This document shows, one piece after another, positions 42,290-42,549 of a stretch of DNA of 53,000 bases. Made by a program: the position numbers and the translations under genes. Position 1 is the first letter of the stretch. The number at the start of each line of letters is the position of its first letter. The notes under the pieces were generated by a model. That model worked only from the letters and a program-made list of their open reading frames with translations, made no database searches and was not told where the DNA came from. Source of the stretch: Chiloscyllium plagiosum (taxonomy: Eukaryota); the NCBI RefSeq assembly GCF_004010195.1, contig NW_025214856.1, positions 1-53,000 on the forward strand. Reading direction: 5' to 3'.

Positions 42290-42549
42290 AATTTTACTGT
42301 GCAGCTTCCAGTCCTCAGGACCCGGTATCACCATATGCTGCACTCACGGATTCTCATCGGATCCCTCACCTCTCCACTCGCACTCACTGACCTGTAATTT
42401 GTGGGACCACAGGGAGTGGCAGCAGAGTTACAGCTTGGTGAGGAACAGGCTGCACTGTTCTGCAATGGACCGACGGCTGTTCCACACATCCCCCCATAGT
42501 TAAGATGCCGTGGGAGCCGAAGAATTTACGTCACATGATGGTACGCTGA
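42290..42549 (+). pseudogene. CNPase-like 2H phosphoesterase domain remnant within ERV pol
   Basis: FVGPQGVAAELQLGEEQAALF…TAVPHI (42398-42490), then PWEPKNLRHMM after a frameshift. Upstream FYCAA (42292) sits where the first HxT motif is expected. Confidence 0.6.

What the first reader, a model, noticed from the sequence alone, without database searches (positions are those of the whole stretch)
42290..42549. CNPase-like 2H phosphoesterase domain embedded in a shark ERV directly after the protease
Seen: between the protease and the integrase C-terminus, frameshifted translation gives FYCAA…PYAA, then FVGPQGVAAELQLGEEQAALF…TAVPHI, then PWEPKNLRHMM. Established: vertebrate CNPase has LHCT…LFVTPKT.GARVELSEQQLQLW…RAHITL, and 2H domains are reported in a zebrafish ERV polyprotein and as 2-5A-degrading antagonists (coronavirus ns2, rotavirus VP3). 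Inference: this retroviral lineage carried an accessory 2H enzyme (RNA end processing or innate-immune antagonism). This copy is decayed, since neither HxT/S motif is intact. The ORF track does not show the domain.
Basis: partly seen in the sequence, partly recalled or inferred. Interest (0 to 1): 0.72.

Follow-up and report, generated by a model that had tools for sequence, protein, structure and literature searches.

The report
Broken CNPase-like domain in shark retrovirus
A dead retrovirus relic still carries the broken remains of an enzyme domain shaped like the vertebrate enzyme CNPase; fish retroviruses are already known to carry such domains, but what they do for the virus seems untested.

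Summary
The five peptides lie where stated, in alternating frames, in an old LTR-bounded provirus that has lost RT, RNase H and the integrase core. No Pfam or PDB sequence search recognises the pieces. However, 33 of 140 protease relatives carry a ~175-aa domain between protease and RT, 30 of them with both HxT/S motifs. A profile of them hits the window's middle piece (E 1.5e-6), and the 63-codon motif spacing is kept. Models of a killifish and a sawshark relative match mouse CNPase (Z 16.7, 14.8), well above other 2H enzymes (Z 8.7 or less), including a helix placed like CNPase's alpha7. This copy is dead: both motifs are damaged, with two frame changes and the last ~40 residues deleted. Most likely the ancestor made a 2',3'-cyclic-phosphate phosphodiesterase within Pol. 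2-5A antagonism is unlikely, because most named hosts of intact copies belong to lineages reported to lack OAS-RNase L. CNPase/2H domains in fish retroviruses are already in print, and this scan noted the same domain before on other DNA. My searches found no shark, ray or newt example and no functional test. Verdict: new member of a known kind; modest interest.

The parts
38781..39515 (+). 5' LTR
   Evidence: Pairs with 43465-44111; 84.9% over 524 columns plus a 72% block
40539..41051 (+). Broken gag, probable capsid region
   Evidence: Two stop-bounded frames; no convincing Pfam hit; assignment by position only (inference)
41046..41535 (+). 14 x 35-bp tandem array inside gag, before the zinc knuckle
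   Evidence: TRF score 595, 80% matches
41555..41599 (+). Nucleocapsid zinc knuckle
   Evidence: Pfam zf-CCHC E 2.7e-4
41779..42111 (+). Retroviral aspartyl protease (DTG at 41821), in a stop-free frame 41734-42231
   Evidence: 140 relatives at E<=0.001; groups with bamboo-shark P0002 (98/86) and sawshark P0014 (99/98)
42150..42387 (+). 2H domain remnant, first part, protease frame; stop at 42232; first motif position reads YCA at 42295
   Evidence: DTG to motif 1 is 158 codons, relatives 131-164; Trp 44 codons before motif 1, sawshark 43; register test vs P0014 0 of 1000 shuffles, vs all 33 not significant
42398..42490 (+). 2H domain remnant, middle part, +1 frame; second His at 42485, motif reads HIP
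   Evidence: Profile E 1.5e-6; z>3 against 27 of 33 relatives; 63.3 codons from motif 1, relatives 56-68 with mode 63
42496..42546 (+). 2H domain remnant, region of the helix after the second motif, protease frame; conserved Gly position is Arg; rest of the domain deleted
   Evidence: Aligns to P0014 from residue 222; 0 of 1000 shuffles vs P0014, 17 of 1000 vs all 33
42545..42556 (+). Approximate junction of a ~3.1-kb deletion (end of 2H domain, RT, RNase H, integrase core)
   Evidence: Second His to integrase-tail landmark is 61 codons here, 1079 and 1116 in two full-length relatives; integrase homology starts at 42556
42556..42765 (+). Integrase C-terminal domain
   Evidence: Pfam MLVIN_C E 4.3e-6; tblastn E 6e-5 to 1e-3
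42822..43430 (+). Probable env remnant, heavily deleted
   Evidence: Position and a hydrophobic N-terminal stretch; no Pfam hit for 43021-43311; inference
43465..44111 (+). 3' LTR

Best explanation
This is the non-functional remnant of a CNPase-type 2H phosphodiesterase domain that the ancestral epsilon-like retrovirus encoded in pol, between protease and RT. SHOWN: homology of the remnant to intact domains in relatives; conservation of both HxT/S motifs there; CNPase-like predicted fold; breakage of this copy. INFERRED from fold and established CNPase chemistry: the two His-x-Thr/Ser motifs hydrolyse 2',3'-cyclic phosphates to 2'-phosphates with water, positioned by the helix after the second motif. 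INFERRED from position: the enzyme was made as part of Gag-Pol, packaged in virions, probably released by the viral protease, and delivered with RT. Most likely role (about 50%): opening 2',3'-cyclic-phosphate ends left by host metal-independent RNases on viral RNA, primer tRNA or host RNA, or clearing 2',3'-cyclic nucleotides. Identity of the domain about 93%; CNPase-type chemistry about 70%.
For: 33 of 140 protease relatives carry >=110 aa of the domain; both motifs are intact in 30 of 33 at 23-55% whole-protein identity to P0013. Protease-to-RT spacing is bimodal: 107-136 aa in 16 and 283-308 aa in 12 of 35 measurable proteins. The P0013 model (pLDDT 90) matches mouse CNPase 2xmi at Z 16.7, rmsd 3.4, 169 aligned; other 2H folds reach Z 8.7 or less; Foldseek E 3.9e-7. 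Sawshark P0014 residues 101-275: Z 14.8, rmsd 3.4, 172 aligned. A helix starts 11 residues after the second His, and Gly stands at His2+15 in 28 of 32 relatives, the same spacing as mouse H309/G324 in PDB titles. Helix alpha7 is described as unique to CNPase and as excluding nucleophiles larger than water (PMC5283653, passages). The window protease groups with P0014 (99/98).
Against: No sequence-level link to CNPase: none of 30 relatives hit a Pfam CNPase family, and only one weak 2_5_RNA_ligase2 hit appeared (E 0.045). The window's pieces gave no 2H hit, and the first two pieces read together gave 0 PDB matches at E<=10. Structural identity to CNPase is only 14-20%. The fold was predicted for relatives, not for the window copy. 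The first piece is not significant against the whole family. A shared fold does not show substrate; no assay was run here or found in my searches. Close relatives without the domain exist, so it is dispensable in some lineages.
Confidence: 0.6

Rival explanations
1. The domain destroyed a cyclic-dinucleotide immune messenger such as 2'3'-cGAMP, made when cGAS senses reverse-transcribed DNA; packaging with RT would deliver it at the right time.
For: Other viral 2H enzymes do this and share the fold (Acb1 Z 7.5, penguinpox cGAMP PDE Z 6.2). The pol position couples it to reverse transcription (inference). cGAS-STING presence in fish is recalled, not checked.
Against: The fold is far closer to CNPase (Z 16.7) and has the helix said to block the side used by 2'-5' substrates.
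Confidence: 0.15
2. The domain degraded 2-5A to block RNase L, like coronavirus ns2 and rotavirus VP3.
For: Same superfamily (ns2 Z 7.5, VP3 Z 6.9, AKAP7 Z 6.9). Cartilaginous fish keep OAS-RNase L (PMC10400998, passages).
Against: That paper reports loss of the pathway in ray-finned fishes and in Anura plus Caudata, yet 10 of 12 named hosts of domain-bearing relatives are teleosts (9) or a newt (1). All 5 named reptile relatives lack the domain. Helix alpha7 blocks the 2-5A side in CNPase.
Confidence: 0.08
3. Its main role is non-catalytic: a decoy or binding module against host CNP, which restricts retroviruses, or an RNA-binding spacer in Pol.
For: CNP is listed as an interferon-stimulated antiretroviral protein, and a cited title says it inhibits HIV-1 particle assembly (PMC5026698, passages). 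3 of 33 relatives lack an intact motif pair.
Against: Both catalytic motifs are kept in 30 of 33 divergent relatives, which points to selection on catalysis.
Confidence: 0.12
4. The resemblance is chance in a decayed spacer, or the breaks are assembly errors in an intact gene.
For: Two of three pieces are not significant alone; the second break lies at a C run.
Against: Middle piece E 1.5e-6 with exact spacing. A 426-base contig of an independent run spans 42292-42717 with 21 differences and 0 gaps, across both frame changes and the deletion junction. LTRs are about 15% diverged.
Confidence: 0.03

Closest known systems
CNPase domains in epsilon-like ERVs of ray-finned fish (Basta et al. 2009, as cited in PMC4977317) and 2H domains in fish retroviruses including walleye dermal sarcoma virus (Mazumder et al. 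2002, as cited in PMC9503650)
   Same: Retrovirus-encoded CNPase/2H domain in fish-type retroviruses (passages). Teleost relatives found here carry it between protease and RT.
   Different: This copy is from a shark-associated clade and is dead and truncated. The two primary papers are not held, so I could not see whether they give the protease-RT position or any cartilaginous-fish example.
Vertebrate CNPase catalytic domain (mouse 2xmi, human 1woj)
   Same: Best structural match for two modelled relatives (Z 16.7, 14.8); two HxT/S motifs; helix and Gly after the second motif.
   Different: 14-20% identity; 63 residues between the His motifs versus 79 in mouse (H230-H309 in PDB titles); embedded in a viral polyprotein; no Pfam CNPase hit.
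AKAP7-like 2',5'-phosphodiesterases (MHV ns2, rotavirus VP3) and cyclic-dinucleotide PDEs (Acb1, penguinpox PDE)
   Same: 2H superfamily fold, virus-encoded.
   Different: Much weaker match (Z 6.2-7.5, in the range the tool calls a common arrangement). Helix alpha7 is described as missing from most 2H enzymes. Host range does not fit 2-5A.

Membership tests
2H phosphoesterase superfamily (lineage) | Two HxT/S motifs | tested here: met
   30 of 33 relatives have both
2H phosphoesterase superfamily (lineage) | 2H fold | tested here: met
   Predicted models of P0013 and P0014 match CNPase and other 2H folds
Active 2H enzyme (this copy) | Two intact HxT/S motifs in one open frame, complete fold | tested here: not met
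   YCA and HIP at the motif positions, one stop inside the domain, two frame changes, C-terminal ~40 aa deleted
CNPase subfamily | Helix alpha7 directly after the second motif | tested here: met
   Helix 247-258 after His236 in the P0013 model; Gly at His2+15 in 28 of 32. Model-based; equivalence to alpha7 rests on spacing and the whole-domain match, not on a residue-level superposition
CNPase subfamily | Sequence match to the Pfam CNPase family | tested here: not met
   No CNPase family among hits at E<=0.1 for 30 relatives or 8 window pieces
CNPase subfamily | Hydrolysis of 2',3'-cyclic phosphate to 2'-phosphate | not testable with these tools
   Needs an enzyme assay
AKAP7/ns2/VP3 2',5'-PDEs | Closest fold is AKAP7-like | tested here: not met
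   AKAP7 6.9, ns2 7.5, VP3 6.9 versus CNPase 16.7
AKAP7/ns2/VP3 2',5'-PDEs | 2-5A cleavage | not testable with these tools
   Needs an assay; host distribution argues against it
Epsilon-like (class I) ERVs | RT phylogeny with epsilonretroviruses | not testable with these tools
   RT is deleted in this copy; the RT of the nearest relative P0014 matches MLV RT best (Z 28.9)
Epsilon-like (class I) ERVs | LTR-gag-pro-pol-env-LTR layout with MLV-type protease and integrase tail | tested here: met
   the env assignment is by position only

The most novel reading that the evidence does not exclude
An old clade of fish- and amphibian-infecting retroviruses, spanning sharks, rays, teleosts and newts, captured a CNPase-type enzyme and repurposed it as a virion-packaged eraser of a nucleotide immune signal (2'3'-cGAMP or cyclic-phosphate RNA ends). 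It was delivered with reverse transcriptase, and related domains also sit in walleye virus Env. Relatives infecting reptiles lost it.
Probability: 0.2. Interest if true: 0.75.

Novelty: new member of a known kind. Interest (0 to 1): 0.3.

Why it matters
This copy does nothing. The lineage is what matters: a catalytically conserved CNPase-type domain is a regular part of Pol in many fish-type retroviruses, including shark, ray and newt ERVs, and I found no test of its function. Natural intact versions exist in public protein sets, so a simple substrate panel could settle it. The host distribution makes the popular 2-5A analogy unlikely and narrows the question to cyclic-phosphate ends versus cyclic dinucleotides. 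It could also bear on the still unclear biological substrate of vertebrate CNPase (PMC5283653 calls its function enigmatic).

Tried and rejected
No whole genome is held for this window, so copies in the same assembly were not counted and dN/dS was not computed. Pfam on eight window pieces gave no 2H family. The first two pieces read together found 0 PDB sequences at E<=10. The word-based protein search found nothing with the protease (712 candidates) and only the query itself with the newt domain (180 candidates). A whole-protein profile against PDB sequences showed only RT structures in the 60 rows listed. The window copy itself was not folded and has no language-model result, so its fold rests on homology to modelled relatives. 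Trees did not resolve one gain versus several: 7 label changes on the protease tree (47 of 52 candidate rows kept) and 3 on a 14-row RT tree that is not better than shuffles (52-57 of 500). Labels are noisy: P0034, labelled 'no', keeps the start of the domain. Expression: no RNA holder listed; 0 reads laid from about 2% of one RNA run, which is no test. One search does not show whether other copies keep an open frame. Basta 2009 and Mazumder 2002 are not held. Rejected: chance resemblance, assembly error, and a natural 2H-integrase fusion (it is a deletion junction).

Full report
Observation. FYCAA (42292) and PYAA (42331) are in the protease frame, FVGPQG...ALF (42398) and TAVPHI (42473) in the next frame, and PWEPKNLRHMM (42508) back in the protease frame. 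Stops lie at 42232, 42388, 42395, 42497 and 42547. Pfam finds no 2H family in any of eight window pieces, and the first two pieces read together match 0 PDB sequences at E<=10. The case therefore rests on relatives.

Setting. The region lies in a provirus bounded by LTRs at 38781-39515 and 43465-44111, 84.9% alike over 524 columns, so it is old. Inside are a broken gag with a 14 x 35-bp array and a zinc knuckle, a protease, the region in question, an integrase C-terminal domain (E 4.3e-6) and a short probable env remnant. From the second His to the integrase-tail landmark there are 61 codons, against 1079 and 1116 in two full-length relatives. About 3.1 kb of pol, including RT, RNase H and the integrase core, are missing. 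The domain touches the integrase tail only because of this deletion.

Relatives. The stop-free protease frame found 140 proteins among 1.84 billion representatives. The two best are bamboo-shark proteins (62% and 52%), which supports the shark label without proving it. 50 of the 140 match some part of a domain after the protease, and 33 match over at least 110 residues. Among 35 proteins where the protease-to-RT distance could be measured, 16 had 107-136 residues and 12 had 283-308; the other 7 were in between or longer. Both HxT/S motifs are intact in 30 of the 33. I looked up 30 proteins by name. The 12 named domain-bearing ones come from 9 teleost records, a ray, a sawshark and a newt. The 8 named ones with the short spacer come from 5 reptiles, a newt and 2 teleost gene models, one of which keeps the start of the domain.

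Is the window piece that domain? A profile of the 33 relatives hits the middle piece at E 1.5e-6 in the six-frame window, next best 1.3. It scores 28.3 bits, reached by 0 of 1000 shuffles, and z>3 against 27 of 33 relatives singly. The outer pieces are not significant alone against the profile (708 and 76 of 1000 shuffles as high). Spacing supports them: 63.3 codons between the motif positions (relatives 56-68, mode 63) and 158 codons from the protease DTG to motif 1 (relatives 131-164). The protease tree places the window with bamboo-shark P0002 (98/86) and sawshark P0014 (99/98). In the register fixed by the middle piece, both outer pieces match P0014 better than all 1000 shuffles. Against all 33 the first piece does not (197 of 1000) and the last is marginal (17 of 1000). 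P0014 was first picked as the best pairwise match, so that test leans on the tree for independence. A Trp 44 codons before motif 1 (43 in P0014) suggests the domain starts near 42150.

Fold. The killifish relative P0013, folded with a 33-row alignment (pLDDT 90.4), matches the mouse CNPase catalytic domain over residues 125-297: Z 16.7, rmsd 3.4, 169 aligned. Other 2H proteins score 8.7 or less: ns2 7.5, Acb1 7.5, VP3 6.9, AKAP7 6.9, penguinpox PDE 6.2. Foldseek agrees (E 3.9e-7). The sawshark relative gives Z 14.8, rmsd 3.4, 172 aligned over residues 101-275, in a part modelled with lower confidence. A helix begins 11 residues after the second His, and Gly stands at His+15 in 28 of 32 relatives, the spacing of mouse H309 and G324 in PDB titles. 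PMC5283653 (passages) describes helix alpha7 as unique to CNPase, positioning the attacking water and blocking the side on which 2'-5' substrates bind in viral enzymes. Against: none of 30 relatives hits a Pfam CNPase family, and structural identity is 14-20%.

State of this copy. The motif positions read YCA and HIP, the conserved Gly position is Arg, and there is a stop inside the domain and two frame changes. The fold runs to His2+61 in the model, while homology here ends near His2+19, so about 40 residues are gone. The breaks are real: a 426-base contig from an independent run spans 42292-42717 with 21 differences and no gaps. 115, 127 and 199 contigs of three runs lay on the stretch at 85% or more, so related copies are many, but these counts are not copy numbers.

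Mechanism. Shown: identity, fold class and conservation in relatives, decay here. Inferred: a CNPase-type enzyme made in Gag-Pol, packaged, and acting on 2',3'-cyclic phosphates of RNA ends or nucleotides. PMC9503650 (passage) proposes such end processing for some RNA-virus 2H domains. 2-5A antagonism fits poorly: PMC10400998 (passages) reports loss of OAS-RNase L in ray-finned fishes and in Anura plus Caudata, the lineages of 10 of the 12 named domain-bearing hosts. Cartilaginous fish keep the pathway, and viruses change hosts, so it is not excluded for the shark clade. cGAMP cleavage (0.15) and a non-catalytic decoy against host CNP (0.12; CNP as an antiretroviral ISG, PMC5026698 passages) remain open.

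What is known. PMC4977317 (passages) states that fish epsilon-like ERVs sometimes encode CNPase or macro domains, citing Basta 2009. PMC9503650 lists 2H domains in fish retroviruses and walleye dermal sarcoma virus, citing Mazumder 2002. Neither primary paper is held; they or their supplements may already give the position or shark examples. Han 2015 on elephant-shark ERVs (PMC4422223, part 1 of 2 read) does not mention the domain. PMC8406329 and PMC10835031 contain no 'retro', and PMC8672886 no 'CNP'. Searches (listings seen) showed no shark example and no functional test; most subscription papers are not covered. The viral structure library holds a 31%-identical match over 307 columns (Q2VF30_1, unnamed by the tool; from recall a salmon retrovirus polyprotein, not verified) and matches to two walleye virus Env proteins. 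This scan noted the same domain before, on another piece of this genome and in another genome; my reading was written down before I saw those notes, and they are not independent support.

Verdict. Real, correctly identified, dead in this copy, and of a kind already reported for fish retroviruses. What is added is the presence of intact versions in shark, ray and newt ERVs, the CNPase-type rather than ns2-type fold, and a host-range argument against 2-5A. Novelty: new member of a known kind. Interest 0.3.

Noticed in passing
BFVD entries Q9WHI8 and A4GTG3: Env polyproteins of two walleye retroviruses match the model over about 200 columns (E 1.2e-9, 3.6e-8), the size of the 2H domain. WDSV Env has a cytoplasmic loop of about 170 residues (PMC3185748 passage). 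Ranges were not shown, so placing the domain there is inference; a 2H domain in WDSV is already cited.
   Followed up: partly
window 41046-41535: 14 copies of a 35-bp unit inside gag, before the zinc knuckle. The period is not a multiple of three, so the array cannot have been read as one repeating peptide in its present form.
   Followed up: no
relatives P0018, P0021, P0035, P0096, P0133: All 5 named reptile relatives lack the domain, while fish and one newt family keep it; possible loss on moving to amniote hosts, but the trees are unresolved.
   Followed up: partly
window 39518-39535: Just after the 5' LTR is a likely primer-binding site starting TGG; from recall it resembles a serine tRNA site; not tested.
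   Followed up: no
window 41731-41733: A TAG stands directly before the protease frame, in frame with it, as expected for gag-pol read-through in gamma- and epsilon-type retroviruses; upstream decay prevents certainty.
   Followed up: no
window 42292-42717: The deletion junction and both frame changes are spanned without gaps by a contig about 95% alike, and a high-depth contig of a second organism spans the first break without gaps. The broken form may have been copied, or be older than a species split.
   Followed up: partly
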